DNA of 62,650 nt from a virus, in IMG/VR virus record IMGVR_UViG_3300034418_004553. The stretch is one strand, 5' to 3'. This document shows positions 13,954-59,948 of this stretch, piece after piece. Under the pieces are notes generated by a model. It saw nothing but the letters and a program-made list of their open reading frames with translations. It did not search any database and was not told the origin of the DNA. The stretch's first letter is position 1. Each line of letters starts with the position of its first letter. Position numbers and translations under genes: made by a program.

Positions 13954-14303
13954 TGGCGTATAAGCTAGGCAAAGAACGTAGAAAAACACGTACACCTGAG
14001 AATACACCTATATTCAGAAAGAAGCTAGATAAAGGTATATTAGGTGAAGCTAATATGGATGGTAGCATCTATGTTAGTAAAGACGTGCCTAAAGATAGCG
14101 CTCTTGAAAAAAGAGTTATACGTCATGAGAAGGTTCACGCCAAAGAGATGAAGGAAGGTAGAATAGCTTACGGTGACGACTATGTAAGAGATGGTAACAA
14201 GACTTACCATAGGAGAGACGGTAAGATTAAATACAACGGTAAGTGGCATGATGAAGGAAGTAATGTGTTTCCTTGGGAGAAGAGAGCTAAGAAAGCAGAG
14301 TAA
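13953..14303 (+). CDS. Small basic protein (MAYKLGK N-terminus) with an HExxH motif
   Basis: 116 aa. Contains VIRHEKVHAKEM (HEKVH). ATGA-type junctions on both sides. Confidence 0.55.
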   Translation: MAYKLGKERRKTRTPENTPIFRKKLDKGILGEANMDGSIYVSKDVPKDSALEKRVIRHEKVHAKEMKEGRIAYGDDYVRDGNKTYHRRDGKIKYNGKWHDEGSNVFPWEKRAKKAE

Positions 14304-14731
14304 TGAAAAAGATTAAAGATACGGGCCTAGGTAAATGGTTGGCTAACAAAGCACCGAACGTACTTGATGTAGTTGGTGAGATGTTACCAGATCAAGGGGC
14401 ACTAGGCATAGTTAAAAACCTTATTGATAAAGACCCTGAGGTAGATACAGAAGCTGGTAAAGCCGCTGTAGAAGCTGAGGTTCAGTTTCAAAACAATGTA
14501 AGCGAAAGATGGAAAGCTGATATGGGTAGCGATGTAAAGCTAGCTAAGATGATCAGACCACTGACACTTATCGCTTTAATGAGTATGTTTATGCTAACAA
14601 TGGTTTTTGATAGCATGGACAACTTACCTTTCAATGTTAAAGATTCATATGTAGATTTACTACAGATACTTATGCTAACTGCTTTCGGTGCATACTTTGC
14701 TGGTAGATCAATAGAAAAAGTAAAAAAATAA
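14303..14731 (+). CDS. Membrane protein with two C-terminal TM segments (possible holin)
   Basis: 142 aa. Hydrophobic stretches IRPLTLIALMSMFMLTMVF and LLQILMLTAFGAYFAG. The holin role is a guess. Confidence 0.4.
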   Translation: MKKIKDTGLGKWLANKAPNVLDVVGEMLPDQGALGIVKNLIDKDPEVDTEAGKAAVEAEVQFQNNVSERWKADMGSDVKLAKMIRPLTLIALMSMFMLTMVFDSMDNLPFNVKDSYVDLLQILMLTAFGAYFAGRSIEKVKK

Positions 14732-43500: not shown

Positions 43501-46500
43501 TGGAGAGATTATACACTCTTACTTAACTACTGGTGAACTTGATATGCGTATATTTGAAGGCGGTGGACCTTATAGACCATACAAGACTGGCGTTATTAGC
43601 AAGAGCATGGATAATGCGGTGACAGACGCTGGTCATAAGTTTATTTCTCCGAGATTAGGAAGAGGTGACAGCAGACAATACTCGTATGAAGCTATTGGCG
43701 ATAGTAGAATTAGACCTCTTAGAAGCATTGATCCAGCTAAAAAAGGTACTAACAAAGAGTTTATTGGTAGAGAGTGGGTTCAAATGAACGACGCTGTGTC
43801 AAGAGGTGATGGTACTGTAATTAAAGATATGAGAGTGCTGCAAGGTATATTTGGAAATATATCTTTCTCGAAGCGACCTGCTAAAAACAAAGGGGCTAGC
43901 GTACTTGATTTTGATGACACATTAGCTACAACTAACTCTAGCGTGTTGTTTACTGCGCCTGACGGAACTAAAGGTAAGTTAAACGCAGAAGAGTATGCTA
44001 GAGATTACGTTGAGCTGCTTGGTCAAGGCTATGAGTTTGATTTCTCAGAGTTCAACAAGGTTGTTGACGGAGCGCCTGGACCTTTGCTTGATAAAGCTAA
44101 AAAATTAGCGAAGAAGTTTGGTACTGATAACATGTTTATCTTGACCGCTAGAGCACCACAGGCTCAAGAAGCTATATTCGAGTTTATGAAATCTCAAAGC
44201 TTAGAAATACCTATTGACAACATCGTAGGCTTAGGTAATTCTACTGGTCAAGCTAAAGCTAACTGGATCGCTGAGAACTTAATAAAGGAAGGATACAATG
44301 ATATGTACTTCGCGGATGATGCGTTACAAAACGTAGAGGCCGTTAAAGCTATGTTTGAGCTGTTTGATGTTAAGAGCAAAGTCCAGCAAGCTAAGGCTGA
44401 GTTTAGTAGAAGAGCGCCTAAGAAAATGGATGGTATCATCGATGAAGGCGCTGCTGATCTTGATTCAGACTTTAATATTATACTAGAGCAAACTAAAGGT
44501 GTAGCTAGATTCAAGCAGTTCTCTGCTGGTAAAGCTAGACAACGTGGTAAAAACAAAGGTAGATTTAAATTCTTTATACCACCTTCAGCCGATGATTTTG
44601 CTGGTTTACTATATAGCTTCATGGGTAAAGGTGAGATTGGTAACAAGCACCACGCCTTCTTCAAGAAGCATTTGTTCGATCCGTTTAGTAAAGGTGTTAG
44701 ACTTTTAAATAGAGTAAACCAAATAGCAGCTAATGATTTAAAGAACTTGCGTAAGTCTTTCCCTGATGTTCGCAGGAGCCTTAAAGATAAGTTGCCAGGG
44801 CTAGAGTACACTACTGAAGATGCTATAAGAGTATACAACTGGAACAAGCAAGGATTTGATGTTCCAGGTTTATCACAGACAGATCTAAACGCTATTGTTA
44901 AAGCTGTTGAAGGTAACGCTAGCTTGAAAGCATTTGCTGATGGTGTTAGTAGAATTATTGTTGGAGAAGCTATTATGCCAGACGACTCTTGGTTAGGTGG
45001 TACTATAGCATCTGATATTAACGATTCTCTTGAAAACGCTAGATCGACATACTTGCAAGAGTGGATAGATAATAAAAACGCTATATTCACTGAAGCTAAC
45101 ATGAATAAAATTGAAGCTGTTTATGGCTCTAATTTTAGAGAGGCTTTAGAAGATGTGCTATTCCGTATGGAAAACGGTGGTAACAGATCTCAAGGTCAAG
45201 GTAGACTAATGAACACCTTTACTAACTGGATACACGGATCTATTGGTACTACTATGTTCTTCAATGCAAGATCAGCTATGTTGCAGATGATTTCAAATGT
45301 TAACTTTATTAACTGGAGTGACAACAATATGTTAAAAGCAGCAGCTGCGTTTGCAAATCAAAAACAATACTGGTCTGATGTTGCTATGATATTTAACTCT
45401 GACTTCTTAAAGCAGAGAAGAGGTAGAATACAAACAGATGTTAACGCGGCAGAGCTACTAGCAGAGATACGTGATTCTAAAAACCCAATGAAGAAAGCTA
45501 CGGCTTACCTTCTTCAATTAGGTTTTACACCGACGCAAATTGCGGATAGCTTTGCTATTGCAACTGGTGGTGCTACGTTCTATAGAAACAGAGTTGATTC
45601 GTATATCAAAGAAGGTATGTCTAAGAAAGACGCTGAAACAAAAGCGTTTGAAGATATGATGGAGATCGCTGAGGAAACTCAGCAGTCTACAAGAGAAGAT
45701 AGAATATCTCAACAGCAGGCTTCACCTCTTGGTAAGTTTATACTGGCTTTCCAAAACACACCTATGCAGTACAATCGTTTGATTAAGAAAGCTGCTCAGG
45801 ACTTAGTTAACGGAAGAGGTGATGCTACAGCTAATGTCTCTAAGATCGTTTACTACGGTGCTATACAGAACATGATATTCTACGGGCTTCAGCAAGCTTT
45901 GTTCGCAGCAATGTTCGGTGACGACGAAGAAGATAAGATCGATGACAAGCAGAAAGAGCGTATGATTAACGGTATGCTTGATACTGTATTAAGAGGTTCC
46001 GGTATTGGCGGTGCTGTTGTATCTACAACAAAGAACGTTATCTTGAAGTTCATGGAGCAAGAAGAGAAAGCTAAAGATGATAAGTTCTTCACTGAGCCAG
46101 ATCACGCTTACACTGTTATCGAGGCACTCAATATATCTCCACCGATCGGTATTAAAGCTAGAAAGCTATACAGCGCTTTGCAGTCTTGGGAGTTTAACAG
46201 AGAAGTTATCGATTACATGGACAAGACTGATATCGATAACCCAGTTTACGATGCGGTATTTAGCGCTACTGAGGCTGTTACAAACCTACCTTTATCAAGA
46301 CTGTATAGCAAATACCAGAACTTGAAAGAAGCTGCTAACTCAGATCACGAAACGTGGAAGAGAGTAGCCATGCTACTGGGTTGGAGTAAGTGGAGCTTTG
46401 GTATTAAGAACCAAGACGTGATGTCTGCTAAGAACGAGATTAAAGAAATCAAAGCTGAAGAAAGAGAAGAGCGTCAAGAGCAGAAAAAGCTCGAGCGACA

Positions 46501-46780
46501 GATAGCTAAAGACGAAGAAGAACGTCAAGTTATTGAAGATAACAAGCTTGATCAAGACGAAAAGAGAGAAGAAGGAGATGCAGAAGTTCAATGCGCTGCT
46601 GTTAGTAAATCCGGTAAGCGATGTTCTAATATTGCTTTAGATGGTAAAAGCTTTTGCACGGTGCACGATGAAGTTCCTCAACAAGAAAACGAAGTTCAAT
46701 GCTCACACACAAAGAGTAACGGTGAGCGCTGTAAAATGAAAACTAAAAACAAATCAGGAAAATGTTACTACCACGATTAA
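37535..46780 (+). CDS. Giant polyvalent protein (3081 aa): zincin HExxH, HAD-phosphatase-like domain, twin C-terminal Zn-ribbons
   Basis: HELLH at 40670..40684. HAD motif I VLDFDDTLATT (43901..), motif II MFILTARAP, motif IV YFADDALQNV (about 44305..44345). Two copies of EVQC-x6-G-x-RC-x9/10-C-x2-HD (46581..46777). Confidence 0.65.
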   Translation: MNEELLKIIEAMEAANEPAESIAAVVQQYMAEQGTDTADTPAADVMSVSQRDVDAGIKPESYVNSTYWNTLSDEVDRSQYYDSEGNFIANDSLLSDPHYNQALQEEQTRETIVRDSSVTGLTETEKRYDITEEDEKIIESEALNVYNNYASNSEELANIPEDNVGSGDMFAGMMNDIVSGRLNGVLPRKFRPGGNEYGKFSANPRAVYEAWLRENTKDSESVLMQNINRFGKYQDLVLKFANEGYQTDTQIREQSEANEIKYFNTRLRLALNKYLEEAYGSADSAEAEEFLKNAGNITLKDIKDDVYGTRGKGKRKLKDIYDALEGTDELRSEILAQENRGIRSNLIKNRASEIAKSTVEGGTYEGSALAGTGAINSIFGKTEQQLAIIDASEEDFAQIQDDAKQKAIEGDLVHQQLNVVNDRLSSLASEIKDFGDPKEYIKSIKDKYDLNTEQGINDANKEIQDFIGKYTNLIDEYNVALDSSKSLHDSVIKVGAELEQLSIREQDLNAFTNQISKNHRVATQMALSFHNGIVSLGEGGLELAYMVNPLGALSDELVDLYGEDSFVDAVIETARFATALPTGGISLYSGERRDKIRGSIDGYKNHVNSLVVEPPKFDDIDGFGSAVEWALITGASQAPQLALLAATGGTAGLIMMGGISAGNKFSEMDSARDLYRRTGGMYGQNHSFGEMYAASLASGTIEALSEKVTLNLLKGTGGISSKFLFGDIGKRAATTFLRKDVLKVGLRSTAAAGLDLFDEGASEALAQMGGNYIDRLAGDKEIGIFDGVDEAFVTGALIGGTLSAPTLFRNTYRAFQSVEASDVLDSNRARIQELNSIINDPNSTEETVRQAEENIQSLVAENAELIAFDLKRVDSLSKEQKAELLKIDESQRNLEVRLSEIAASEDLTKEQKEKIYAEMNIGYNKNLARKNQILKSIPTDEVLKNHENDIKRIEEESARLVAEGGPAINVTRSNGKNDADIASQFEEWKNSAKKRGNVKIAASEDGTRIYGAMVPILDNSGKVVSYEMFFNDKNIYEDGVTTTGTHELLHAAIFNTIRANPVLRNRFGDAINRILDGPGVKISKKAQEQLDLLNQYSKEQRGEELFAKVSELMVSGDITIDGGAVGKFKDLLRRTSMQNTDTDIVFDGDVDVRNFLKDYSRSRKKGIADKRITSLFTKGAKGRIVEQPKTREEARRVVEGRLEEALEESFMTTLSASIRSNPDLRQEFDQFTKNEDGTPKYKTQQEWESSQDYVDAYQKIVESNLLDGLIQTKMIERGVPPAALRDFTRKVKENIGLRFLPTVDKKTGRVKPDSGYRISNDSLFGWLTGVAGGAGQSVIYRAKGDVMNEYKESGNLETVSLDAPMGETTTFEATIEAETDALMQQLEEADLSRTRVEREARKPKKVVNELNIDSDGKAAINKAVADAAVDIAGLQYKDVKKLGNSVDAPLYKTLQIVSEKFGVNPKNVIKSANLNTKQRKAAQQFINDNVEFLLEMLPDGETRSGEATGVPRVLLNNFYEKGERLKYKDGATAAGKFTQQKRTDITPEQFKEAFGIRPDGTLDNNRKYDSAINALVNQATMLANNQALREHAMKEGTASEAVVAKLGEGKAEVMFSVKVRDNVKNTFDQLYPDLITAVAASNTGDIDSIRVAVESVYGNVLSTSEIKRLVNEIYDQADEYNTINQNLKGVGVDVPVSLEQFLQAKYESNNSEKGILKALEDKLPKDELGKTTRIGTHFLDLVRINKQRAVPGLFVAEARALLDKKGNRIYSDKQIAEMLIAHAMPMFAGSGRIADRRFIVEKREPDGERVVVKDPNWKPTKRNKKGQEVPQKNRKQAFQSVPDFIAVLNTLGLGKIEKVGKGYTLDGAPLDTTLIPETSEARLSRSKTEKAKADLFEKGKKQAKDARVVTKIILDSLYAKANDPSSSYDYADFAMTLTSLGSNMQAPMRRAALFEYFMEGVEDVVANRGDASIGSVTEFEHLKPQEEAIGEIIHSYLTTGELDMRIFEGGGPYRPYKTGVISKSMDNAVTDAGHKFISPRLGRGDSRQYSYEAIGDSRIRPLRSIDPAKKGTNKEFIGREWVQMNDAVSRGDGTVIKDMRVLQGIFGNISFSKRPAKNKGASVLDFDDTLATTNSSVLFTAPDGTKGKLNAEEYARDYVELLGQGYEFDFSEFNKVVDGAPGPLLDKAKKLAKKFGTDNMFILTARAPQAQEAIFEFMKSQSLEIPIDNIVGLGNSTGQAKANWIAENLIKEGYNDMYFADDALQNVEAVKAMFELFDVKSKVQQAKAEFSRRAPKKMDGIIDEGAADLDSDFNIILEQTKGVARFKQFSAGKARQRGKNKGRFKFFIPPSADDFAGLLYSFMGKGEIGNKHHAFFKKHLFDPFSKGVRLLNRVNQIAANDLKNLRKSFPDVRRSLKDKLPGLEYTTEDAIRVYNWNKQGFDVPGLSQTDLNAIVKAVEGNASLKAFADGVSRIIVGEAIMPDDSWLGGTIASDINDSLENARSTYLQEWIDNKNAIFTEANMNKIEAVYGSNFREALEDVLFRMENGGNRSQGQGRLMNTFTNWIHGSIGTTMFFNARSAMLQMISNVNFINWSDNNMLKAAAAFANQKQYWSDVAMIFNSDFLKQRRGRIQTDVNAAELLAEIRDSKNPMKKATAYLLQLGFTPTQIADSFAIATGGATFYRNRVDSYIKEGMSKKDAETKAFEDMMEIAEETQQSTREDRISQQQASPLGKFILAFQNTPMQYNRLIKKAAQDLVNGRGDATANVSKIVYYGAIQNMIFYGLQQALFAAMFGDDEEDKIDDKQKERMINGMLDTVLRGSGIGGAVVSTTKNVILKFMEQEEKAKDDKFFTEPDHAYTVIEALNISPPIGIKARKLYSALQSWEFNREVIDYMDKTDIDNPVYDAVFSATEAVTNLPLSRLYSKYQNLKEAANSDHETWKRVAMLLGWSKWSFGIKNQDVMSAKNEIKEIKAEEREERQEQKKLERQIAKDEEERQVIEDNKLDQDEKREEGDAEVQCAAVSKSGKRCSNIALDGKSFCTVHDEVPQQENEVQCSHTKSNGERCKMKTKNKSGKCYYHD

Positions 46781-47805
46781 GTTTATTATTAACCTTACTA
46801 TTTAGCTGCACAGTACTGCAAGCTCAAGAGTTAAAGAAAGCATTTAAGTTTTCTACATTCTACGCGGCTGTTAACGGAGGTAACTCCGTATCAGATCAAA
46901 CAGTATACTCAATACTTGACGGTTTGAACGAGGAAGTTATATCAACACCGTTTGACTACAGCTTATCTATTGGTGTACGTAAGATCGCTAGGTTTGGTTA
47001 TGAAAACAGAGCCAACGCTTTCTACGACGGAACAGAAACATCGTGGTCTGCTGATGCTAACATCGGTAAGCGCAACGGTATAGAGTTCCTTGGAGAGGTT
47101 ACATACGAAAGACAGCAAGGCCGAGAGTTCTTCAACCAACACCACTTTTTTCGCTACATTGGAGATAAGTTCATGGCAAAGGTTGAATACCTTGAAGACG
47201 GGTTTGCAGATGTTGGGTACTTTGAAGGATCACAAAGATATAGACTTAAGCTCGGTAAAAAGTTCTCTCTTCACGCAGGTATCGCACAACGTATCTCAGA
47301 GCCTTACGGATATGATCCACTTGAAGAGTGGAGACTTTCAAACGGAGATATTCACTACACTTACCTCGCACTTGAGGAAGGATATACACACGACCTTGTT
47401 ACAGGCGAGTACCTCGCTCCTGACGGAACAATCGTTGCAACAAGCACTGAAGTCTGGGAAGCAGTCACTATCCCTGAGATCTTATCTGAATACACTGCTA
47501 GAAAAAGAAATGAACTCACTGATCAATGGAATTACTCGTTGGTTGCCGGATACGACTTCTATCACTTTACAGACGACTTCTGGTTCCACTCATGGGGAAA
47601 CATTTTACCCTATCATTACGACACTGGAGGTGAATATATGTATCACAATACGGTAGATGGACAATGGTTAGATTACTCTGGTGGTTTGATTTTTGGTAAG
47701 AAGTTTAAGAAAAGCTTAGGAGTATTTCTCGAAGGTAGATATTACAAGTACTGGAACAGAGAGTGGTACAACTTTAAGTGTGGTGTAAACTATGTAATCT
47801 TTTAA
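46762..47805 (+). CDS. Outer-membrane beta-barrel-like protein with signal peptide
   Basis: N-terminus MLLPRLSLLLTLLFSCTVLQAQ. Aromatic/Gly-rich alternating composition. C-terminus ...CGVNYVIF ends in Phe (OMP beta-signal). Confidence 0.6.
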   Translation: MLLPRLSLLLTLLFSCTVLQAQELKKAFKFSTFYAAVNGGNSVSDQTVYSILDGLNEEVISTPFDYSLSIGVRKIARFGYENRANAFYDGTETSWSADANIGKRNGIEFLGEVTYERQQGREFFNQHHFFRYIGDKFMAKVEYLEDGFADVGYFEGSQRYRLKLGKKFSLHAGIAQRISEPYGYDPLEEWRLSNGDIHYTYLALEEGYTHDLVTGEYLAPDGTIVATSTEVWEAVTIPEILSEYTARKRNELTDQWNYSLVAGYDFYHFTDDFWFHSWGNILPYHYDTGGEYMYHNTVDGQWLDYSGGLIFGKKFKKSLGVFLEGRYYKYWNREWYNFKCGVNYVIF

Positions 47806-47808
47806 GAT

Positions 47809-48093
47809 ATGGCAAAACAAATAGGTGAGGATACTAAAGTAACATTAGACCTCAAAACAATCGGTATGGCATCAGCAGGTTTAGCTGCTTTAATTGGTAT
47901 GTACTTTACGCTACAAGCTGATATAGCTTTAGCAAAAGAATTACCTGAACCACTTCCACCAGACGTAACTCGCATGGAGTTTGACATGAAAGATAAGCTA
48001 GTACGTCAGACCATTATGACAACGCAGGAGGACGTATCAGAACTTAAAGAAGATCTTGATCGTATCGAAGAAAAAATTGACAAACTAAAATAG
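47809..48093 (+). CDS. Single-pass membrane protein with C-terminal coiled coil
   Basis: 94 aa. TM IGMASAGLAALIGMYFTL, then DVSELKEDLDRIEEKIDKLK. Confidence 0.5.
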   Translation: MAKQIGEDTKVTLDLKTIGMASAGLAALIGMYFTLQADIALAKELPEPLPPDVTRMEFDMKDKLVRQTIMTTQEDVSELKEDLDRIEEKIDKLK

Positions 48094-48095
48094 TT

Positions 48096-48464
48096 ATGGA
48101 AGAGACATTGAACTTCAAAACTGTGTTAACATACATACTGTTAATGCTGTTTATGCTTGTTGGCGGAACAGTGCTAAGTCAAAACATGTGTAACAGCGAT
48201 ATTTGTGTAGTACAGTTTAACGCTGGTTGGAACGAGGCTAATGGAGTAGATTATCTAGATGATCTAAAAGACTGCAGTGTTATGAACGTTAATATCGAAG
48301 ATGGCACTTACCAAGCTGACTATGATATTGTAGTTGTACCTACTATCATAGTATTTAACGGTAAAGAGATCGAAAGATTTCAAGGTAATATTATGATGAA
48401 GATAGAAGCTACGCGCAAAGAAGTACAAAGTGTAGTTGATGAAATTATATATAGTGATTTTTAA
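48096..48464 (+). CDS. Signal-anchored thioredoxin-fold protein lacking the CxxC site
   Basis: VVQFNAGWNEAN sits where Trx has F-x-A-x-WCGPC. The cis-Pro loop VVVPTIIVFNGKE is retained. N-terminal TM LTYILLMLFMLVGGTVL. Confidence 0.5.
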   Translation: MEETLNFKTVLTYILLMLFMLVGGTVLSQNMCNSDICVVQFNAGWNEANGVDYLDDLKDCSVMNVNIEDGTYQADYDIVVVPTIIVFNGKEIERFQGNIMMKIEATRKEVQSVVDEIIYSDF

Positions 48465-50678
48465 ATGAAGAAGTTAGGATACATTTTTGTAATACTGTTT
48501 TGGCTTTTAGCTAGTGCAGTACTGGGTCAGGGTAGCTGGCTAGACGTAGCTGTACAAGTTGATCAATACCCAAATGAAACTTCGTGGGTAATTATGCAAG
48601 ACGATAGCATTCTTGTAACAAGCCCGCAGTATCAGCCTAATCAATATCTAACTACACCAGTGTTTTTACCTGCAGGTGATTACACTTTTATCATTAGTGA
48701 TACTTTTGGTGACGGTATATGTTGTGAGTTCGGACAGGGTAACTACGAGTTAAAGAACTTCTGCGGACTATACGAAGCAAACTTTGAGTTCAACGCAGCC
48801 GCAGACACAATTGACTTTACTCTCGAGCCTTGCGACGTGCCGGTGTTTGGTTGCATGAACGAGTTGGCTAACAACTTCAACCCATGGGCTAATATAGATA
48901 ACGGCAGTTGTAACGTTGTATCGTGTAACGAAGATCAGGCTTTAGTGACTATGGAGCTAACTCTTGATACTTGGCCTAACGAAACTGGATTCACTCTAGT
49001 GAACTTATCAAACGGACAGCCTTACCATGAGGTGCTTGTTAACGAGTATAACTTCGGTGATCAAATGCTAACATACACATATGACTTCTGTGTAGAACTA
49101 GGCTTTGAGTTAATCTTATACGACTTATTTGGTGACGGACTAAACGGTTCTGCGTCAGGCGGTCAGGATGGGGCGTGCGTAATTACTTCATGTGACAGTA
49201 TTCTATGGGAGCTTGAGGACTTAGCTTTTGAAGAGTGGGATGGTATTGTTATGTACTCTGGTCCTATATTCACTGAGCCATGTGAGCCTGAACCAGATGT
49301 AGTTGGCTGTATGGATGACGACTACGTAGATTACAACCCACTTGCTACGATTCAAGACACTTGTATGACATTACACACTTGGGGTTGTATTGATCCTACA
49401 GCCTTGAACTACGATAGCTTAGCTACTATAGCAGACTACGCTAGCCCTTGTACTCTTGAGATTATACTTGAGGATGACGCTGGTGATGGATGGGGAGCAT
49501 CCACCATCGGTATGGTGCAAGGCGATCAGCAGTGGTTGTTTAGTATGGCACCTGGTGAGTTTGTTCATACGTGGGAGCTAACGCTAGACTCTGATGAAGA
49601 GGTTGATGTGTACTACTTTCAAGCTGGTACTCAGCAACAGTCGCCGCAAGAACTTGCTTTTCAGACGCTTCATAACTCTATATTAGTATTAAATGCTAAT
49701 GGAGACACACTACTAAACGAAGGAGATAATCCATTTATGAACAATGGTCAAAGCGCTTTACAGCCTTTCTCTACTCCAGAGTGGACTATATATAACTTTA
49801 CACCTTTCTGCGGCGATGGTTGTATACCTCATATCTATGGCTGCACTGATCCTTTAGCTTGCGACTATAACGAAGAAGCTAATACTAACACTGAGTGTAC
49901 ATATCCTGTAGAATACTACGACTGCATGAATCACTGTATCAACGACACGGATGGTGATGGCATTTGTGATGAACTAGAAATAGTAGGTTGTCAAGACCCA
50001 ACAGCTTTTAACTACGATGCTACAGCCACAGACCCTGGTGAGTGTATTGAAGTTGTGTTTGGCTGTACTGATCCTACAATGTTCAATTATAACCCTGAAG
50101 CCAACGTAGACAACGGTAGCTGTATTGAGATTATTTATGGTTGTATGGACCCACTAGCTCTAAACTACGACGAAGATGCTAACACCGACAACGGTAACTG
50201 CATCGACCCAGTAGCTGGTTGCATGGATGTAGACGCTTATAACTTTGAACCACTCGCTAATGTAGCAGATAACGAAAGCTGCTTATACGAAGCTGTTGGT
50301 TGCGTGAGTGGTGTTGGTGAACCTTACGGCGATGGCTTCTGGCTTAACGATGATTGTTATGCTTGGGTTATTGAAGCTGATCCATATTGCTGTGAAGAAG
50401 CTTGGGATGCTACTTGCCAAGCAACATATGACTACTGTAGTGTAACAGGTATAGAATCCGTGCTAGCTGGCGAAGACTTAATTGTCTACCCAAACCCAGT
50501 GGGCAACGTGTTAAACATAAATCAAAACGTTGACGTAGACGTGATCGATTCAAATGGGCGTATCATAGTATCTAAAACAAATACGAACGCGATAGACGCG
50601 TCCCTATGGCCTCCAGGAATGTATATGGTACGTATTATTTGGAACGGTCGCGTCGTCGTCAATAAAGTTGTTAAATGA
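48465..50678 (+). CDS. Secreted Cys-rich repeat protein with T9SS type-A C-terminal sorting domain
   Basis: Signal peptide MKKLGYIFVILFWLLASAVLGQ. Eight GC(M/T)D-x-x-A-x-NY-x-x-x-A-x-x-D-x-x-x-C modules. The C-terminus LIVYPNPVGNVLNI...VIDSNGRIIV...LWPPGMYMVRI...VVNKVVK matches the Por secretion tail pattern. Confidence 0.75.
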   Translation: MKKLGYIFVILFWLLASAVLGQGSWLDVAVQVDQYPNETSWVIMQDDSILVTSPQYQPNQYLTTPVFLPAGDYTFIISDTFGDGICCEFGQGNYELKNFCGLYEANFEFNAAADTIDFTLEPCDVPVFGCMNELANNFNPWANIDNGSCNVVSCNEDQALVTMELTLDTWPNETGFTLVNLSNGQPYHEVLVNEYNFGDQMLTYTYDFCVELGFELILYDLFGDGLNGSASGGQDGACVITSCDSILWELEDLAFEEWDGIVMYSGPIFTEPCEPEPDVVGCMDDDYVDYNPLATIQDTCMTLHTWGCIDPTALNYDSLATIADYASPCTLEIILEDDAGDGWGASTIGMVQGDQQWLFSMAPGEFVHTWELTLDSDEEVDVYYFQAGTQQQSPQELAFQTLHNSILVLNANGDTLLNEGDNPFMNNGQSALQPFSTPEWTIYNFTPFCGDGCIPHIYGCTDPLACDYNEEANTNTECTYPVEYYDCMNHCINDTDGDGICDELEIVGCQDPTAFNYDATATDPGECIEVVFGCTDPTMFNYNPEANVDNGSCIEIIYGCMDPLALNYDEDANTDNGNCIDPVAGCMDVDAYNFEPLANVADNESCLYEAVGCVSGVGEPYGDGFWLNDDCYAWVIEADPYCCEEAWDATCQATYDYCSVTGIESVLAGEDLIVYPNPVGNVLNINQNVDVDVIDSNGRIIVSKTNTNAIDASLWPPGMYMVRIIWNGRVVVNKVVK

Positions 50679-51727
50679 TTAAGTGGATAGGTCAACATAT
50701 ATGGGATTTTGTTTCAAGGTTTAGAAACAAGGTTATACTCGAAGATTTAACAGAATCAACTGAAGAGTACACCATAATGGTTACGACAAGTGGTGAGCTT
50801 GTTAAAAGCACTCACCCTATGGAAAGATCAAGACTTCAGATTAGAAACGATGAAGGCTCAACTATACCAGCTGGAGCTCCACTGTATTCCAAAGGTGAAA
50901 TTGGTGGTAGCGAAAGAATCAAGGTTGGTATAGCTGATGCTAATGATGCTAGCAAGATGCCGTGTATAGGTGTTGCTGAAGCTGAAATGAATACATCTTC
51001 TACTAAAGATAATTTTGCTATATCACAAGGTGTTTTTAATACCAACATATCTGGCTTTACAGGGTTATCTGATGGTGATATATTATATGTTGATGACTCT
51101 GGTTCAACTCCTTATTTAACTCAAAATAAATCTGACATAACTGGTAGTGCTAACAAAATACAAAACGTAGGTATTGTTCTTAAAACAAATGGTACTATAT
51201 GCCAAGGCCTTTTAGTATCAGCAATTGGTAGAACTAATGACGTACCGAATCTCGATAGTGGTAATATATTTTATGGAGACACCGGTAATCAAGCCACAAC
51301 AATATCGTTAAATAGCGTGCTTGGTTGGCATGGATCAACAACTAGAATAAAGATATTACCATCAGACTTTGTAGCTGACGACGTTGGTAGACCTGTTATG
51401 ATAAACGACAGTAGCATCGGAAGTAGTTCTGTGCACTTAAAAACATTTGGTTCTGCATCGGCTTTTGTTTGCGTGAACATACCAACTGGTTATAAAGCAA
51501 CTCATGCTATGATTCACGGTAGTGATACATCTCAAAACTACAAAGTATACGAAGCAAACATCAACTCAAGCACTGTAACATCTAAATCTAGTGCGACAAG
51601 CATTGGTACTGAAGCTGATATAACAGATGTCACAAGTAGTACAACGAACTATTTACTTATAGAAGTTCTATCAGACGGAGAAACTGACGAGTTTTATGGA
51701 GGCTACGTAACTATAACAAGTGTATAA
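50675..51727 (+). CDS. Hypothetical protein (possible fibre/spike)
   Basis: 350 aa, S/T/G-rich. ATGA overlap with the upstream gene. Confidence 0.45.
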   Translation: MIKWIGQHIWDFVSRFRNKVILEDLTESTEEYTIMVTTSGELVKSTHPMERSRLQIRNDEGSTIPAGAPLYSKGEIGGSERIKVGIADANDASKMPCIGVAEAEMNTSSTKDNFAISQGVFNTNISGFTGLSDGDILYVDDSGSTPYLTQNKSDITGSANKIQNVGIVLKTNGTICQGLLVSAIGRTNDVPNLDSGNIFYGDTGNQATTISLNSVLGWHGSTTRIKILPSDFVADDVGRPVMINDSSIGSSSVHLKTFGSASAFVCVNIPTGYKATHAMIHGSDTSQNYKVYEANINSSTVTSKSSATSIGTEADITDVTSSTTNYLLIEVLSDGETDEFYGGYVTITSV

Positions 51728-52203: not shown

Positions 52204-52509
52204 ATGCAATTATTTAACATAACAAGTCTTACAACTACAACTCTAGTAGCTCTGTACAAAGAACAGAATAGCATTGAGTCAATACACATGGCTAATACAC
52301 ACGCTAGCACTGATGTTAGAATACAATTGTTTTTAGAAGACGAGTCTGCTAATAAGTACTACTTACTTAGAACTGATATACCAGGTTTGACTACGTTAGT
52401 GTTTGATGACGGTATAACATTTGACAATAGTTCATTTAGCTTAAAGCTAACAACTCAAACGTCGGCTGACATAAGTGCGACAGATCCTTTAACAGTAATA
52501 GTAAAATAA
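52204..52509 (+). CDS. Hypothetical protein
   Basis: 101-aa ORF. Confidence 0.5.
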   Translation: MQLFNITSLTTTTLVALYKEQNSIESIHMANTHASTDVRIQLFLEDESANKYYLLRTDIPGLTTLVFDDGITFDNSSFSLKLTTQTSADISATDPLTVIVK

Positions 52510-52970
52510 TGGATAATATAAGTGATCATATAAGTTATAGAGAAGCCACTCGTTCAAACACTGCTTTACGTAGAGGTATCGATAATATACCTGACGTTGA
52601 AGAGCTTGAGAACATGAAGCTAATAGCTGAAAAAGTTTTTGAGCCGCTGCGTAAACATGTCGGTGGTCCTATTAAAATAAATAGTTTTTACAGATCACCT
52701 GAGCTAAACGTAGCTATCGGTGGTAGTAAAAACTCTCAACACTGTAAAGGTCAAGCTATCGACCTTGATGATACATATGGGCATAAAAGCAATGCTGCAA
52801 TGTTCCAATGGATGCGCTATCACCTAGATTATGATCAAATGATCTGGGAGTTTGGTGACGATAAAAACCCAGCGTGGATACACGTTAGTTACGTATCAGA
52901 AGAAGAGAACAGACACAGGTGTCTTAAAGCTGTTAAGAAGAACGGTAAGACACATTACGAATTAATGTAA
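52509..52970 (+). CDS. Peptidase M15 family endolysin (L-alanyl-D-glutamate / D-Ala-D-Ala peptidase type)
   Basis: SFYRSPELNVAIGGSKNSQHCKGQAIDLD plus downstream WIHVSY give the H-x6-D...H zinc ligands of Peptidase_M15_3-like lysins. Confidence 0.8.
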   Translation: MDNISDHISYREATRSNTALRRGIDNIPDVEELENMKLIAEKVFEPLRKHVGGPIKINSFYRSPELNVAIGGSKNSQHCKGQAIDLDDTYGHKSNAAMFQWMRYHLDYDQMIWEFGDDKNPAWIHVSYVSEEENRHRCLKAVKKNGKTHYELM

Positions 52971-53287
52971 TGCCATATAAGCAACTAAATAACCCTTTCA
53001 AAAAAGCTGAGCCTCGAAGAACAATAGGTAGAGGTAAAAACTTTAATCCTGTTGCTAAAGACAAAAGCGCTACCGGTGGAGCAGCAGGTGGCGGCATGAC
53101 AGAGAAAGGTGTTAAAGAATATAAAAGTAAAAACCCTGGTAGTAATTTACAGACAGCTGTAACTACTAAGCCTTCAAATCTAAAGCCAGGTAGTAAAGCT
53201 GCTAAACGTAGAAAATCGTTCTGCGCTAGATCAAAGAGTTGGACTTCTGAAAGAGGTAAAGCTGCTAGACGTAGATGGAACTGTTAA
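52970..53287 (+). CDS. Small basic protein (MPYKQLNNPFKK N-terminus)
   Basis: 105 aa, K/R/G-rich. Confidence 0.55.
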   Translation: MPYKQLNNPFKKAEPRRTIGRGKNFNPVAKDKSATGGAAGGGMTEKGVKEYKSKNPGSNLQTAVTTKPSNLKPGSKAAKRRKSFCARSKSWTSERGKAARRRWNC

Positions 53288-53291
53288 GATC

Positions 53292-53459
53292 ATGGCATTT
53301 AAAATGAAAGGAGCGCCTTATAAAAAAGGCATTAGTCCGGCTTGTAAAACAGCTGCTAAACGTAAGTTTAAAGTATGGCCTAGCGCTTATGCTTCAGGCT
53401 GGGGAGTACGCTGTACAAAAGCTGGTGGACCTGGTAAAATGGGTAAGAAGAAAAAGTAA
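53292..53459 (+). CDS. Small basic protein (MAFKMK N-terminus; 55 aa, below the track cutoff)
   Basis: Manual translation MAFKMKGAPYKKGISPACKTAAKRKFKVWPSAYASGWGVRCTKAGGPGKMGKKKK. TAATG junction with the next gene. Confidence 0.55.
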   Translation: MAFKMKGAPYKKGISPACKTAAKRKFKVWPSAYASGWGVRCTKAGGPGKMGKKKK

Positions 53460-54277
53460 TGGCTAATTTATTTAAGGACTTTGATGCAAAGCCGTTTATG
53501 AAACGTAAACCGCCTAGTGACAACTCGTTTGACACCGATCAGGAGCTCAAGCAGTTATCTAAAATTCCTATTAATAAAAAGTTTGTTGAAGAAAAAGACG
53601 ACATAGAAGCTACATTTAAAAAAGCTTCTGATGCTGCAGGTGTAGAATACCCTAGTGCGTTAGTTAAAAAGCTTATTAACGACTCGAGAGGTACTATATT
53701 AAAATTAAAAAAACATTTTAATAGACCTAGACCTAGTGAACTAGCTAAGAGAAGAAATATAAAGCTTGATAACGTTGAGGCTAAGTCTACGAAAACTCCG
53801 TCGTACCCGTCTGGTCACTCAACACAGGGCGTTTTAATTGGTGAAGTATTAGCTGATATGTACCCTAAAGCTGCAGCTAAGTTTAGAAAAGCTGGTAAAG
53901 ATATATCGTACAGTAGAAACGTAGCTAGAGCTCATTACAAGTCTGACTCTAAAATAGGTGAAGAGTTAGGCAAAGAAATGTTTAAGCATTACAAAGCCAA
54001 CATGTCTAGTAGCCCGTTAGCTAAGAAGCCTAAAGGTGCTCCTGACTGGCATGACTCTGACGCACCTGACGCTAAAGGTAAGTTCAGAGATTTATCTGCT
54101 AGCGGTTTAGCTAGCTGGTTAATTAAGAGTAGACGTGGTAACTTATCTAGAATTATCAGCAGCTTAAATCAGCAGATAGTATTTAACCGCAAGAAGAATC
54201 CTAAGTACGCCGCTAAGATGCGTAAGACTCAAGACATAGTTCGCAAGCGACTAGGTAAGAAGAAAGATGGCAAGTAA
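53459..54277 (+). CDS. PAP2-superfamily (type 2 phosphatidic-acid/acid phosphatase) domain protein with basic C-terminal tail
   Basis: Tripartite signature K-x6-RP (KKHFNRPRP), PSGH (PSYPSGHS), SR-x5-H-x3-D (SRNVARAHYKSD). I saw no obvious TM helices. Confidence 0.75.
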   Translation: MANLFKDFDAKPFMKRKPPSDNSFDTDQELKQLSKIPINKKFVEEKDDIEATFKKASDAAGVEYPSALVKKLINDSRGTILKLKKHFNRPRPSELAKRRNIKLDNVEAKSTKTPSYPSGHSTQGVLIGEVLADMYPKAAAKFRKAGKDISYSRNVARAHYKSDSKIGEELGKEMFKHYKANMSSSPLAKKPKGAPDWHDSDAPDAKGKFRDLSASGLASWLIKSRRGNLSRIISSLNQQIVFNRKKNPKYAAKMRKTQDIVRKRLGKKKDGK

Positions 54278-54561: not shown

Positions 54562-54668
54562 TCAAGTAGAAAGAAAAATATTTAAGATATCTCACCAACC
54601 AACTTTATGGTGTAAGTGTTGAAAGAGAAACGAAGCCGTTAGGATTGCCTAGCGGCTTCTGCTTTTAT
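54562..54668 (+). ncRNA. Candidate ~105-nt sRNA bounded by the promoter above and a strong terminator
   Basis: No ORF (only ATG-GTG-TAA). Ends in a 12-bp hairpin plus a U-run. Confidence 0.35.
54632..54668 (+). terminator. Rho-independent terminator
   Basis: 12-bp stem GAAGCCGTTAGG / CCTAGCGGCTTC (one G-U pair) with ATTG loop, followed by TGCTTTTAT. Confidence 0.7.
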
Positions 54669-54854: not shown

Positions 54855-55130
54855 ATGGCATACAATCAAAAAAATAATCCGTTTAAAAAAGTAAAAGGTG
54901 GAGGCACAAAGAAAGTGTGTTTACCCGCTGCTAAGGTTCGCGGTATGAGCAAGAGTGAGCGTGACAAAGTTGTAAGAGCTAAACGCACTGCCGCTAAAAA
55001 AGGAGACTACAAACGGTCTAGCAAAAGCTTTGTTAAAGGAGCGAGGAAGAAAGGAGCTACGCTACGAGACTGGTTTGAAAAAGAAAACTGGGTACAAGTT
55101 AATAACCCAAGTAAAAAGTGTGGGGAATAA
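54855..55130 (+). CDS. Small basic protein (MAYNQKNNPFKK N-terminus)
   Basis: 91 aa, last gene of the plus arm. Confidence 0.55.
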   Translation: MAYNQKNNPFKKVKGGGTKKVCLPAAKVRGMSKSERDKVVRAKRTAAKKGDYKRSSKSFVKGARKKGATLRDWFEKENWVQVNNPSKKCGE

Positions 55131-59677: not shown

Positions 59678-59948
59678 CTTTATTGTATTTATCGTAATAG
59701 TATTTATAGTATTCGTAAACCTTAGTCATAACCTCTTCGCCTCTATAAGACGTTGGATCAACACTAACAGTTGCATTAATCTGAATATCAATTTGCCATT
59801 CGTCTTTAGTATCCCATAAAGGAGTAAAGCCTACGACTATATTGTTATTCATACACCAAGCAACGTGCCTCATGTTTTCATCACTGTAGCCTATTGACAC
59901 CGGTGTTCGACCACCCTTCTTTTTCTTCTTGTTGTTACCTATTCCCAT
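59661..59948 (-). CDS. Hypothetical protein
   Basis: 95-aa ORF. Confidence 0.5.
   Translation of the reverse strand: MGIGNNKKKKKGGRTPVSIGYSDENMRHVAWCMNNNIVVGFTPLWDTKDEWQIDIQINATVSVDPTSYRGEEVMTKVYEYYKYYYDKYNKDENKI

What the first reader, a model, noticed from the sequence alone, without database searches (positions are those of the whole stretch)
46762..50678. Phage-borne cell-envelope module: OMP beta-barrel + TM protein + CxxC-less thioredoxin-fold protein + Cys-rich T9SS cargo
Four consecutive, translationally coupled late genes all carry export signals.
- 46762..47805 has a cleavable signal peptide and ends …GVNYVIF, the C-terminal aromatic beta-signal of outer-membrane barrels.
- 47809..48093 is a single-pass membrane protein with a coiled coil.
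- 48096..48464 is a signal-anchored Trx fold in which WCGPC is replaced by WNEAN.
- 48465..50678 is a 737-aa secreted protein with about 50 Cys and a C-terminal domain matching the type IX secretion (Por) sorting tail (YPNP…G.Y.V.I…K).

T9SS exists only in Bacteroidota. This fixes the host phylum and implies that the phage hijacks the host secretion system to place a protein on or outside the infected cell. A Trx-like gene directly upstream of a disulfide-rich cargo suggests a dedicated periplasmic folding helper. An OMP next to a T9SS cargo recalls cargo-specific outer-membrane partners.

Possible functions, all inference: superinfection exclusion or receptor masking, surface remodelling, or lysis/spanin-like activity. 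Alternatively the CTD is only a beta-sandwich reused in a virion fibre.
Basis: partly seen in the sequence, partly recalled or inferred. Interest (0 to 1): 0.7.

Follow-up and report, generated by a model that had tools for sequence, protein, structure and literature searches.

The report
Phage envelope trio plus T9SS cargo
An uncultured marine phage of Bacteroidota encodes four exported proteins in a row: an outer-membrane barrel, an inner-membrane coiled-coil protein, an inactive periplasmic thioredoxin, and a large cysteine-rich protein tagged for the host's type IX secretion system. The first three form a conserved set that in related phages sits next to the lysis genes, so they may be a previously undescribed way of breaching the outer membrane at lysis.

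Summary
The four ORFs lie at the stated coordinates, tightly packed.
- **P1** models as a roughly 12-stranded outer-membrane barrel; every significant PDB fold match is an outer-membrane barrel.
- **P2** has one TM segment followed by a heptad-patterned helix.
- **P3** is a thioredoxin fold (family profile E 2.6e-10) with CxxC replaced by a conserved WNxxN.
- **P4** carries a type-A T9SS C-terminal domain that passes the curated thresholds and superposes on a solved substrate CTD.

Corrections: P4 has 37 Cys, not about 50, and the P3 leader is probably cleaved.

The four genes always co-occur in the window's lineage, in three cyclic gene orders. In more distant lineages the conserved unit is P1-P2-P3 without a CTD cargo. 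There it lies within 4 kb of an endolysin or holin in 38 of 41 loci, and directly adjacent in 20. So P3 is not a chaperone dedicated to P4, and P1 is not a cargo-specific T9SS partner.

Best model (inference, confidence 0.42): a lysis-cassette, envelope-spanning, spanin-like trio, plus a lineage-specific accessory exported by T9SS.

The family is virus-only, abundant in marine metagenomes, and absent from Pfam, PHROGs and all deposited phage genomes. Phage-encoded T9SS cargo has been reported before.

The parts
46762..47805 (+). P1, 347 aa: exported outer-membrane beta-barrel of an orphan, virus-only family. Predicted signal peptide aa 1-21 (...LQA|QELKK). About 12 long antiparallel strands with a 75-aa insert (aa 180-254). 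C-terminal ...GVNYVIF.
   Evidence: ORF. AF2: pLDDT 70, pTM 0.62. All 41 PDB fold matches with E<1e-3 are outer-membrane barrels, including NanC, FapF, NalP/EspP and KdgM. No Pfam, NCBIfam or PHROG hit. More than 3750 metagenomic clusters. At least 590 IMG/VR contigs.
47809..48093 (+). P2, 94 aa: bitopic membrane protein. Short N-terminus, one TM segment (about aa 18-36), a Pro-rich linker, then a C-terminal amphipathic heptad helix. The architecture resembles an i-spanin.
   Evidence: Sequence and family alignment. Only weak hits to coiled-coil families. Always adjacent to P3. Median 64% identity to the window copy.
48096..48464 (+). P3, 122 aa: exported periplasmic thioredoxin-fold protein. 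It lacks CxxC (conserved W-N-x-x-N instead) and has an invariant cis-Pro loop VVVPT. Predicted cleavage ...VLS|QNMC.
   Evidence: The family profile A2 hits PDB thioredoxins: best E 2.6e-10, 206 sequences at E<=1. The single sequence alone is only weak: E 0.009-0.035.
48465..50678 (+). P4, 737 aa: secreted protein with 37 Cys. Signal peptide aa 1-21 (...VLG|QGSW). Three beta-sandwich domains (about aa 23-120, 159-264, 329-445). About eight short disulfide repeats of the form GC.DP.A.NY(N/D)..A..D.GSC. A Cys-rich helical domain (aa 625-667). Then the T9SS CTD.
   Evidence: AF2 pLDDT 67. Fold matches are generic glycan-binding or adhesin-like beta-sandwich arrays, with no catalytic domain. More than 1211 homologues, nearly all carrying PF18962.
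50484..50675 (+). Type-A T9SS C-terminal sorting domain of P4 (aa 674-737).
   Evidence: PF18962: 40.9 bits (cut-off 27). TIGR04183: 44.4 bits (cut-off 23). The profile hits solved CTDs 8glk_D, 8glj_D and gingipain CTDs. The AF2 domain superposes on 8glk_D, the NucA CTD bound in the T9SS translocon: TM 0.74, rmsd 2.8 A, probability 1.00.
52509..52970 (+). Associated lysis gene: Peptidase_M15_3 endolysin, 1.8 kb downstream of P4. In related lineages its homologue directly follows P3.
   Evidence: Pfam E 6.8e-16; phrog_894 endolysin E 3.6e-28. Adjacency in L090, L096, L100, L107 and L109.
14303..14731 (+). Associated lysis gene: holin (phrog_3427 / GTA_holin_3TM-like). It is 32 kb from the module in this window, but lies 0-1.5 kb from the trio in many related genomes.
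   Evidence: phmmer E 3.4e-22 to the holin next to the module in L036. phrog_3427 E 1.1e-21. Distances.
50675..51727 (+). Neighbour, probably not part of the module: P5, 350 aa, a fibre-like protein with a conserved N-terminus (M.KWIGQHIW.F.SRFR) and a variable C-terminus.
   Evidence: It lies within 4 kb of the trio in only 10 of 85 loci and is never adjacent.

Best explanation
The module is two things joined together.

**(1) The core trio**
- P1 is an outer-membrane beta-barrel. P2 is an inner-membrane protein with a periplasmic coiled-coil helix. P3 is a redox-inactive periplasmic thioredoxin fold.
- All three are made late. P1 and P3 are exported through Sec and cleaved by signal peptidase I; P2 is anchored in the inner membrane.
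- Proposed assembly: P2's C-terminal helix, with P3 as adaptor, contacts the highly conserved periplasmic face of P1, forming a link from inner to outer membrane.
- Proposed function: after the holin and the M15 endolysin remove the peptidoglycan, this link carries out or controls the outer-membrane step of lysis. That is the role of a spanin, built from non-homologous parts, with a barrel in place of the o-spanin lipoprotein.

**(2) The accessory P4**
- In this lineage the trio has gained P4, a disulfide-rich protein made of beta-sandwich domains.
- P4's type-A CTD hands it to the host type IX secretion system for export to, or beyond, the cell surface.
- Its N-terminal domain is shared with small secreted proteins that occupy the same slot in related cassettes, so P4 probably works with the trio rather than alone.

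**Status of each step**
- Shown: gene anatomy, folds, the CTD, co-occurrence, and linkage to lysis genes.
- Inferred: topology, physical interaction, a role in lysis, and dependence on T9SS.
For: **The trio is a unit**
- P1, P2 and P3 co-occur on the same strand in every locus with enough flank, across lineages down to about 35% P1 identity.
- P1 and P2 are the most conserved members, with median identities of 63-64% against 47% for P3 and P4.

**Topologies cover all three compartments**
- P1 is an outer-membrane barrel.
- P2 has a TM segment plus a heptad helix.
- P3 is an exported thioredoxin fold without CxxC.

**Link to lysis genes**
- A holin or an endolysin from two unrelated families lies within 4 kb in 65 of 85 loci.
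- In lineages without the big P4 the figures are 38/41 within 4 kb, 34/41 within 1.5 kb and 20/41 adjacent.
- Example: L109 reads P1-P2-P3-endolysin-holin.
- My rough chance estimate for a 60-120 kb genome is 10-15%.
- The fibre-like gene is far less linked: 10 of 85 loci, never adjacent.

**No canonical spanin in the window**
- There is no credible lipobox o-spanin candidate and no spanin PHROG hit.
- About 15% of phages of Gram-negative hosts are known to lack recognisable spanins (abstract of bioRxiv 10.1101/515445, seen).

**P4**
- The CTD is supported by two curated HMMs, by profile hits to solved CTDs, and by structural superposition.
- The signal peptide and the Cys pattern are conserved.
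- Its N-terminal domain is homologous to the 'mini' secreted proteins that lie between P3 and the endolysin: hhalign E 6e-6, and jackhmmer merges the two families.

**Host**: the nearest TerL relatives infect Flavobacteriia.
Against: - There is no experimental evidence and no cultured phage carrying the genes.
- In this window the holin is 32 kb away. The endolysin is separated from the trio by P4 and three other genes.
- In lineages with a big P4, only 27 of 44 loci have a lysis gene within 4 kb.
- Adjacency to lysis genes does not prove a role in lysis. Lambda bor sits next to Rz/Rz1 and is not a lysis gene (own knowledge).
- A beta-barrel has no precedent as the outer-membrane arm of a spanin.
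- P2's periplasmic part is only about 60 aa, against about 130 aa for Rz.
- P1 is modelled at only moderate confidence (pLDDT 70; TM to PDB barrels 0.3-0.6).
- No P1-P2-P3 interaction was modelled.
- Why a lysis device would need a surface-exported T9SS cargo is unexplained.
Confidence: 0.42

Rival explanations
1. One reading: a dedicated surface-display system. P4 is the point of the module. P3 helps it fold in the periplasm, P1 is its outer-membrane partner or anchor, and the host T9SS places it on the infected cell. The purpose would be receptor masking, superinfection exclusion or surface remodelling.
For: - P4 has a bona fide type-A CTD.
- P4 has 37 conserved Cys and adhesin-like or glycan-binding-like beta-sandwich domains.
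- All four genes are inseparable in this lineage despite cyclic permutation of their order, and P4-P1 often overlap by 4 nt.
- Bellas et al. proposed a superinfection or competition role for the phage T9SS cargos they found.
Against: - P1-P2-P3 persist without any detectable CTD cargo in many lineages, so they are not P4-specific.
- P3 has no redox site.
- P1 gives no PorP/SprF signal, and P4 is type A, not type B.
- P2 has no role in this model.
- The genes lie in the late block. Classical exclusion genes act early (own knowledge).
Confidence: 0.2
2. The trio is an envelope-modifying or exclusion device unrelated to lysis, in the manner of T5 Llp, phi80 Cor, T4 Imm/Sp or lambda Bor/Lom. It would block a receptor, channel or DNA-entry route, protecting the infected cell or the progeny from being wasted on cell debris. 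On this view it merely sits at the fibre/lysis end of the late operon.
For: - Phage-encoded outer-membrane barrels are common in viral metagenomes, as the BFVD matches to viral porin, autotransporter and OMP-like proteins show.
- The neighbourhood also holds fibre-like genes (P5-P7).
- Bor sits beside the lambda spanin genes (own knowledge).
Against: - Linkage to lysis genes is much tighter than to the fibre-like gene: 65/85 against 10/85 within 4 kb, and 22 against 0 directly adjacent.
- P1 and P2 are strongly conserved (63-64%), unlike fast-evolving receptor-interaction genes.
- The window is a crAss-like podophage in which none of the proteins run through the family searches was an integrase or repressor; only a subset of its ORFs was screened. 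Moron-type conversion genes are typical of temperate phages.
Confidence: 0.2
3. P1 is a phage-supplied outer-membrane channel (a porin-like auxiliary gene) that alters uptake or efflux during infection. P2 and P3 would be assembly factors, and P4 an independent secreted binding protein.
For: - The best fold matches include the 12-stranded specific porins NanC and KdgM and the COG4313 channel.
- Many charged residues are invariant within predicted strands.
Against: - This does not explain the obligatory P2/P3 partnership or the association with the lysis cassette.
- Expression from the late operon leaves little time for a metabolic benefit.
Confidence: 0.08
4. The proteins are virion components. 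On this view P4 is a fibre or decoration protein reusing an Ig-like CTD fold, and P1 is a beta-rich tail protein.
For: - The module lies inside the structural/late gene block.
- In L003 it is flanked by crAss Ring_1 and Ring_2 genes.
- CTD-like beta-sandwiches are common decoration folds.
Against: - Cleavable Sec signal peptides obeying the Q-rule are conserved on P1, P3 and P4.
- There are 31-71 conserved Cys, implying periplasmic disulfide formation.
- P1's fold matches are exclusively membrane barrels.
- No PHROG structural family hit.
Confidence: 0.03

Closest known systems
Two-component spanins (lambda Rz/Rz1 type; Kongari et al. 2018, PMC6139136)
   Same: - The genes sit in or next to the holin-endolysin cassette.
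- One subunit (P2) is a bitopic inner-membrane protein with a periplasmic coiled-coil-prone helix.
- A second subunit resides in the outer membrane.
- The phage otherwise lacks a recognisable spanin.
   Different: - The outer-membrane subunit is a 347-aa beta-barrel, not a 40-130-aa lipoprotein.
- A third, thioredoxin-fold periplasmic subunit is obligatory.
- There is no sequence homology to any spanin family.
- P2's periplasmic domain is much shorter than that of Rz.
- The function is untested.
Phage-encoded T9SS cargo proteins ('Cryophage', Bellas et al. 2020, PMC7468147; crAss-like gut contigs, de Jonge et al. 2019, PMC6949934)
   Same: A phage of Bacteroidota encodes a protein with a Sec signal peptide and a type-A Por_Secre_tail CTD, presumably exported by the host T9SS.
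   Different: - The Cryophage cargos are recognisable enzymes or a PA14 protein, and are hypervariable 'flexible' genes.
- P4 has no catalytic domain and is conserved at 40-84% across more than 1200 clusters.
- P4 is locked into a four-gene module with envelope proteins.
PorP/SprF-type cargo-specific outer-membrane partners of T9SS (e.g. SprF for SprB)
   Same: An outer-membrane barrel gene lies adjacent to a T9SS cargo gene.
   Different: - There is no PF11751 signal in P1 or in its distant relatives.
- The cargo has a type-A CTD, not type B.
- P1 persists in lineages with no CTD cargo.
CxxC-less periplasmic thioredoxin-fold assembly factors, e.g. F-plasmid TraF (recalled from own knowledge, not tested here)
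   Same: A periplasmic thioredoxin fold that has lost its redox cysteines and acts as a structural or assembly subunit of an envelope-spanning machine.
   Different: No detectable specific homology, only generic thioredoxin similarity. It belongs to a different machine.
12-stranded outer-membrane barrels (NanC/KdgM porins, FapF, autotransporter translocators)
   Same: These are the best structural matches to the P1 model. Strand number and size are similar.
   Different: - TM-scores are only 0.3-0.6 and sequence identity is 6-10%.
- P1 has a 75-aa inserted alpha/beta subdomain and a very conserved 28-aa turn (aa 78-105) that these proteins lack.

Membership tests
T9SS type-A CTD cargo (TIGR04183 / PF18962) | C-terminal sorting domain of about 70 aa that passes the curated HMM thresholds | tested here: met
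   PF18962: 40.9 bits against cut-off 27. TIGR04183: 44.4 bits against cut-off 23. Residues 674-737.
T9SS type-A CTD cargo (TIGR04183 / PF18962) | The CTD adopts the beta-sandwich fold of solved T9SS substrate CTDs | tested here: met
   The AF2 domain (pLDDT 81-89) superposes on 8glk_D: TM 0.74, rmsd 2.8 A, probability 1.00. The family profile hits 8glk_D, 8glj_D and gingipain CTDs.
T9SS type-A CTD cargo (TIGR04183 / PF18962) | N-terminal Sec signal peptide, needed for the periplasmic intermediate | tested here: met
   The hydrophobic leader with ...G|QGSW is conserved. 58 of 60 homologues obey the Q-rule pattern. This is a pattern-based test; SignalP was not run.
T9SS type-A CTD cargo (TIGR04183 / PF18962) | Secretion depends on T9SS and the CTD is cleaved | not testable with these tools
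   Needs expression in wild-type and T9SS-mutant Flavobacterium.
Outer-membrane beta-barrel protein | Cleavable signal peptide, a closed barrel of an even number of antiparallel strands, and a C-terminal beta-signal | tested here: met
   Signal-peptide pattern in 150/152. About 12 long strands. All 41 significant PDB matches are outer-membrane barrels. Terminal Phe in 94/120. Confidence is moderate (pLDDT 70).
PorP/SprF cargo-specific T9SS outer-membrane partner (PF11751) | Match to the PorP_SprF family model | tested here: not met
   No Pfam hit at E<=1 for P1, and none at E<=0.1 for ten distant relatives.
PorP/SprF cargo-specific T9SS outer-membrane partner (PF11751) | Obligate pairing with an adjacent CTD cargo (type B) | tested here: not met
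   P4 is type A. P1-P2-P3 occur without any detectable CTD gene in lineages L090-L129.
Thioredoxin superfamily | Thioredoxin fold with a cis-Pro loop | tested here: met
   Profile A2 against PDB thioredoxins: E 2.6e-10, 206 sequences at E<=1. P82 and T83 are invariant within VVVPT.
Thioredoxin superfamily | CxxC redox active site | tested here: not met
   W-N-E-A-N sits at the WCGPC position. N46 and N49 are at least 90% conserved, and no Cys pair is present.
Two-component spanin | i-spanin: N-terminal TMD plus a periplasmic coiled-coil domain | tested here: inconclusive
   P2 has one hydrophobic segment and a C-terminal heptad pattern by inspection. No dedicated TM or coiled-coil predictor was run, and no structure was modelled. 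Its periplasmic part is only about 60 aa.
Two-component spanin | o-spanin: small outer-membrane lipoprotein with a lipobox, embedded in, overlapping or adjacent to the i-spanin gene | tested here: not met
   The lipobox scan of all six frames finds only off-frame or antisense artefacts. P1 is a barrel, and its Cys16 is not conserved.
Two-component spanin | Location in the lysis cassette | tested here: met
   A lysis gene lies within 4 kb in 65/85 related loci and is directly adjacent in 22. In the window itself the endolysin is 1.8 kb past P4 and the holin is 32 kb away.
Two-component spanin | Required for outer-membrane disruption at lysis | not testable with these tools
   Needs genetics or reconstitution.
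Virion structural / tail fibre protein | Homology to structural families, and a cytoplasmic protein with no export signal | tested here: not met
   No PHROG structural hit for P1, P3 or P4. Export signals are conserved.

The most novel reading that the evidence does not exclude
P1-P2-P3 is a new, Bacteroidota-phage-specific class of outer-membrane disruption machine.
- It would be a three-component functional analogue of spanins, anchored in the outer membrane by a beta-barrel and bridged by a dead thioredoxin.
- In this lineage the fourth subunit, P4, would be routed through the T9SS translocon or engage it. Progeny release would then be mechanistically coupled to the host's type IX secretion system, for example by using or jamming the very large SprA pore.
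Probability: 0.22. Interest if true: 0.85.

Novelty: new variant of a known kind. Interest (0 to 1): 0.62.

Why it matters
- How phages of Bacteroidota get through the outer membrane at lysis is essentially uncharacterised. Canonical spanins are defined from Proteobacteria phages, and roughly 15% of phages of Gram-negative hosts have none.
- Here is a concrete, testable candidate: a conserved, virus-only, three-compartment gene set beside the holin and endolysin. It occurs in at least 590 IMG/VR contigs and thousands of marine protein clusters.
- It also provides a well-supported example of a phage protein addressed to the host T9SS, conserved across a large marine phage clade.
- P1 and P2 have no Pfam, NCBIfam or PHROG family. 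Defining them would improve annotation of a widespread, frequently recovered group of marine viruses.
- The Q-rule signal peptides and the CTD give a cheap marker for predicting a Bacteroidota host.

Tried and rejected
- **DNA similarity to deposited phages:** no match.
- **tblastn against 50,697 phage records:** P1, P2 and P3 give no match. P4 gives one 57-aa repeat match only.
- **PorP/SprF or any known OMP family for P1:** no Pfam or NCBIfam hit, even for distant relatives.
- **OMPLA-like phospholipase idea for P1:** rejected. OMPLA is not among the top fold matches, and the candidate His is not conserved between subfamilies.
- **Cellular homologues of P1:** only 5 contigs in 185,579 species genomes. 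All are in MAGs of implausible taxa (Nitrosopelagicus, Rickettsiales, Parvibaculum, Maricaulis), which I read as mis-binned viral contigs.
- **Catalytic domain in P4:** none found by Pfam, NCBIfam, PHROG, PDB sequence profile or Foldseek.
- **CTD in the small proteins that replace P4 in other lineages:** the C-termini look CTD-like by eye, but hhalign gives E 0.11-0.48 and Pfam gives nothing, so this is not supported.
- **Canonical o-spanin in the window:** none.
- **Promoter and terminator scan:** no enrichment around the module. The scan is sigma-70-type and not suited to Bacteroidota. The only strong terminator closes the whole + strand block.
- **Composition:** the module's GC (0.41) equals the rest of the window, so there is no sign of recent acquisition.
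- **Literature:** searches for a barrel-based spanin, or for this module, found nothing.


Full report
**1. The observation**

They are tightly packed. P1's ATG lies 19 nt inside the end of the upstream 3081-aa ORF. The gaps P1/P2, P2/P3 and P3/P4 are 3, 2 and 0 nt. P4's stop overlaps the next start as ATGA. GC content is the same as in the rest of the window.

The genes lie in the long + strand block that also holds TerL, the portal, virion proteins and a 2617-aa ORF with the crAss muzzle C-terminal domain. That block ends at a strong terminator at 54632-54659.

By TerL, the nearest cultured relatives are podophages of Flavobacterium, Cellulophaga, Tenacibaculum and Maribacter, at about 46% identity.

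**2. The individual proteins**

*P1.* It has no Pfam, NCBIfam or PHROG hit.
- An AF2 model built on 51 homologues (pLDDT 70, pTM 0.62) shows about 12 long antiparallel strands plus a 75-aa insert.
- All 41 PDB fold matches with E<1e-3 are outer-membrane barrels, mostly 12-stranded ones: NanC, KdgM, FapF and the NalP/EspP translocators. TM-scores are modest, at 0.3-0.6.
- In the viral structure library the matches are again barrels, plus one unnamed viral homologue.
- The terminal residue is Phe in 94 of 120 close homologues.

*P2.* It has one hydrophobic segment, a Pro-rich linker, and a C-terminal helix whose hydrophobic residues follow a 3-4 spacing. Database hits are only weak matches to coiled-coil families.

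*P3.* On its own it scores poorly against thioredoxin (E 0.009-0.035).
- A 44-sequence family profile hits PDB thioredoxins at E 2.6e-10, with 206 sequences at E<=1.
- The cis-Pro loop VVVPT is invariant. WCGPC is replaced by a conserved W-N-x-x-N.
- It is therefore a thioredoxin fold that cannot do thiol-disulfide chemistry.

*P4.* It has 37 Cys, not about 50.
- AF2 (pLDDT 67) gives three beta-sandwich domains, about eight short disulfide repeats, a Cys-rich helical domain and a C-terminal beta-sandwich.
- The C-terminal domain passes both curated models: PF18962 at 40.9 bits (cut-off 27) and TIGR04183 at 44.4 bits (cut-off 23).
- The family profile hits solved T9SS CTDs.
- The modelled CTD superposes on the NucA CTD captured in the T9SS translocon, 8glk_D: TM 0.74, rmsd 2.8 A.
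- No catalytic domain was found. The remaining fold matches are generic surface glycan-binding, FN3 or adhesin arrays.

*Signal peptides.* P1, P3 and P4 have N-terminal leaders that end in a small residue followed by Gln. This is the 'Q-rule' for signal peptidase I substrates in Bacteroidetes, described in PMC10367356. The pattern holds in 150/152 P1, 114/131 P3 and 58/60 P4 homologues, against about 9% of other ORFs. The P3 leader is therefore probably cleaved rather than acting as an anchor.

**3. Distribution**

- P1 has more than 3750 homologous clusters at 90% identity, from marine metagenomes including Tara, and 413 representatives at 50% clustering.
- At least 590 IMG/VR contigs carry it.
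- No hit for P1, P2 or P3 exists in 50,697 deposited phage records.
- Among 185,579 species genomes only five contigs carry P1. All are in MAGs labelled Nitrosopelagicus, Rickettsiales, Parvibaculum or Maricaulis, which I read as mis-binned viral contigs.
- The family is therefore virus-restricted and uncultured.

**4. The four genes as a unit**

- On 89 loci related to the window, every locus with sufficient flank carries all four genes, same strand and adjacent.
- They occur in three cyclic permutations: P1-P2-P3-P4 (37 loci), P4-P1-P2-P3 (about 16) and P2-P3-P4-P1 (about 15). A few loci have two P4 copies.
- All apparently incomplete cases are cut by a locus end.

**5. The key result: the core is a trio, and it is a neighbour of the lysis cassette**

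I fetched loci for P1 relatives at only about 35-40% identity.
- P1, P2 and P3 are all still present, but no large CTD protein is.
- Instead, the trio is flanked by an M15 endolysin and a phrog_3427 holin.
  - L109: P1-P2-P3-endolysin-holin.
  - L096: P1-P2-P3-182 aa-endolysin-holin.
  - L123: P1-P2-P3-holin-endolysin.
- In another lineage (L112) an endolysin of a different family, phrog_33083, sits directly upstream of P1.

Counting the 85 loci that have at least 4 kb on both sides:

| Set of loci | Lysis gene within 4 kb | Within 1.5 kb | Directly adjacent |
|---|---|---|---|
| All (85) | 65 | 42 | 22 |
| Without a big P4 (41) | 38 | 34 | 20 |

The fibre-like gene P5 is within 4 kb in only 10 of 85 loci and is never adjacent. 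For genomes of 60-120 kb I estimate chance proximity at roughly 10-15%.

In the window itself:
- the M15 endolysin (52509-52970) lies 1.8 kb beyond P4;
- the holin homologue is far away, at 14303-14731;
- there is no credible canonical o-spanin lipoprotein.

**6. What sits in P4's slot elsewhere**

- One family of 170-200-aa secreted proteins lies between P3 and the endolysin. It is homologous to P4's first beta-sandwich domain: hhalign E 6e-6, and jackhmmer merges it with the P4 family.
- A second, unrelated family of 226-310-aa secreted Cys-rich proteins lies between P1 and P2 in another lineage.
- Their C-termini look CTD-like by eye, but this is not statistically supported.
- P4 is therefore a lineage-specific, expanded, CTD-bearing version of a recurrent 'fourth' secreted component.

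**7. Interpretation**

The functional logic needs revising.
- P3 cannot be a redox helper and is not tied to P4.
- P1 is not a PorP/SprF-like cargo partner.
- The conserved unit covers inner membrane, periplasm and outer membrane, travels with holin and endolysin, and occurs in phages with no recognisable spanin.

The most economical reading is a non-canonical, spanin-like device for, or regulator of, the outer-membrane step of lysis. P4 would be an accessory exported through the host T9SS. This is inference from context and topology.

The rivals remain open: a display or exclusion system centred on P4, an Llp/Cor/Bor-like envelope modifier, and a porin-like auxiliary gene. A virion role is unlikely.

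**8. Relation to what is known**

- Phage-encoded T9SS cargos have been reported. Bellas et al. 2020 described three in 'Cryophage' and called it a unique occurrence. De Jonge et al. 2019 saw CTD proteins in crAss-like gut contigs. The CTD alone is therefore not new.
- I found no description of the P1-P2-P3 trio or of a barrel-based analogue of spanins.
- Redox-dead periplasmic thioredoxin folds serving as assembly subunits have a precedent in F-plasmid TraF. This is from my own knowledge and was not tested here.

**9. Verdict**

This is a real, conserved and abundant envelope module. Its anatomy is well supported. Its function is unproven but now has a specific, testable hypothesis. I rate it a new variant of a known kind, with interest 0.62.

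Noticed in passing
window 10924-12495 (+): The phage encodes a full-length GroEL-type chaperonin (523 aa; phrog_5725, E 4.9e-135).
   Followed up: no
window 37535-46780 (+) and 27353-35206 (+): There are two giant ORFs. The 2617-aa one carries the crAss muzzle C-terminal domain (PF25729, 29.9 bits). The 3081-aa one has no Pfam hit and ends in two Cys/His-rich motifs (C..SG.RC....C.VH / C......G.RC......C..H). It may be a crAss-type ejected cargo or a virion RNAP-like protein. P1's start overlaps its end.
   Followed up: no
window 52970-53287, 53292-53459, 54855-55130; also L090 7705-8004, L096 7705-8004, L112 11203-12756: A family of small, extremely basic proteins with conserved N-termini (MAFKMKG... 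/ ...NNPFKK...) and C-termini (...ARRRW.C) occurs in several paralogous copies around the trio and the lysis genes. In L090 and L096 one copy overlaps the start of P1. Function unknown.
   Followed up: no
loci L001-L084 compared with window 46762-50678: The four-gene module occurs in three cyclic permutations of one circular order (P1>P2>P3>P4>P1) and at different places in the structural block. In L003 it lies between crAss Ring_2 and Ring_1. That pattern would fit cassette-like movement through a circular intermediate, or repeated local rearrangement. A few loci have two P4 copies (L042, L043, L068, L070).
   Followed up: partly
L085-L089 (genome contigs): P1-bearing contigs, including a 120-kb one, are binned into MAGs named Nitrosopelagicus, Rickettsiales, Parvibaculum and Maricaulis. 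These are almost certainly viral contigs mis-binned into cellular MAGs in the GTDB species set.
   Followed up: partly
L090 9838-10164; L107 9317-9541; L100 9304-9606: Extra small membrane or periplasmic genes are intercalated in the trio/lysis cassette of relatives. One is a P2-like paralogue (108 aa, phrog_20984). One is a 74-aa TM plus coiled-coil protein with a weak holin hit (phrog_1296). One is a DUF2279-like exported protein between P2 and P3.
   Followed up: partly
window 53459-54277 (+): A PAP2-superfamily (acid phosphatase / lipid phosphatase-like) protein scores just under the Pfam cut-off (26.2 against 27.2 bits). Homologues recur near the module in L112-L116. It is potentially another envelope-active gene.
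   Followed up: no
window 55174-57039 (-), 59939-61654 (-): A divergently oriented replication and nucleotide block holds a class II (B12-dependent) ribonucleotide reductase and a Toprim/DnaB-type primase-helicase. The strand switch coincides with the GC-skew reversal near 55 kb.
   Followed up: no
P4 homologues P0121 onward: Many P4 homologues carry a precomputed hit to PF26780, which is not in the local Pfam copy. I could not identify this domain. One relative carries a MAM domain (PF00629). A subfamily of 1230-1263 aa has 55-71 Cys.
   Followed up: no
BFVD entry A0A516LKJ4: The single clear viral structural homologue of P1 in UniProt/BFVD (342 aa, E 2e-22, 22% identity) has no name in the tables at hand. 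It may point to a deposited uncultured-virus genome that carries the trio.
   Followed up: no
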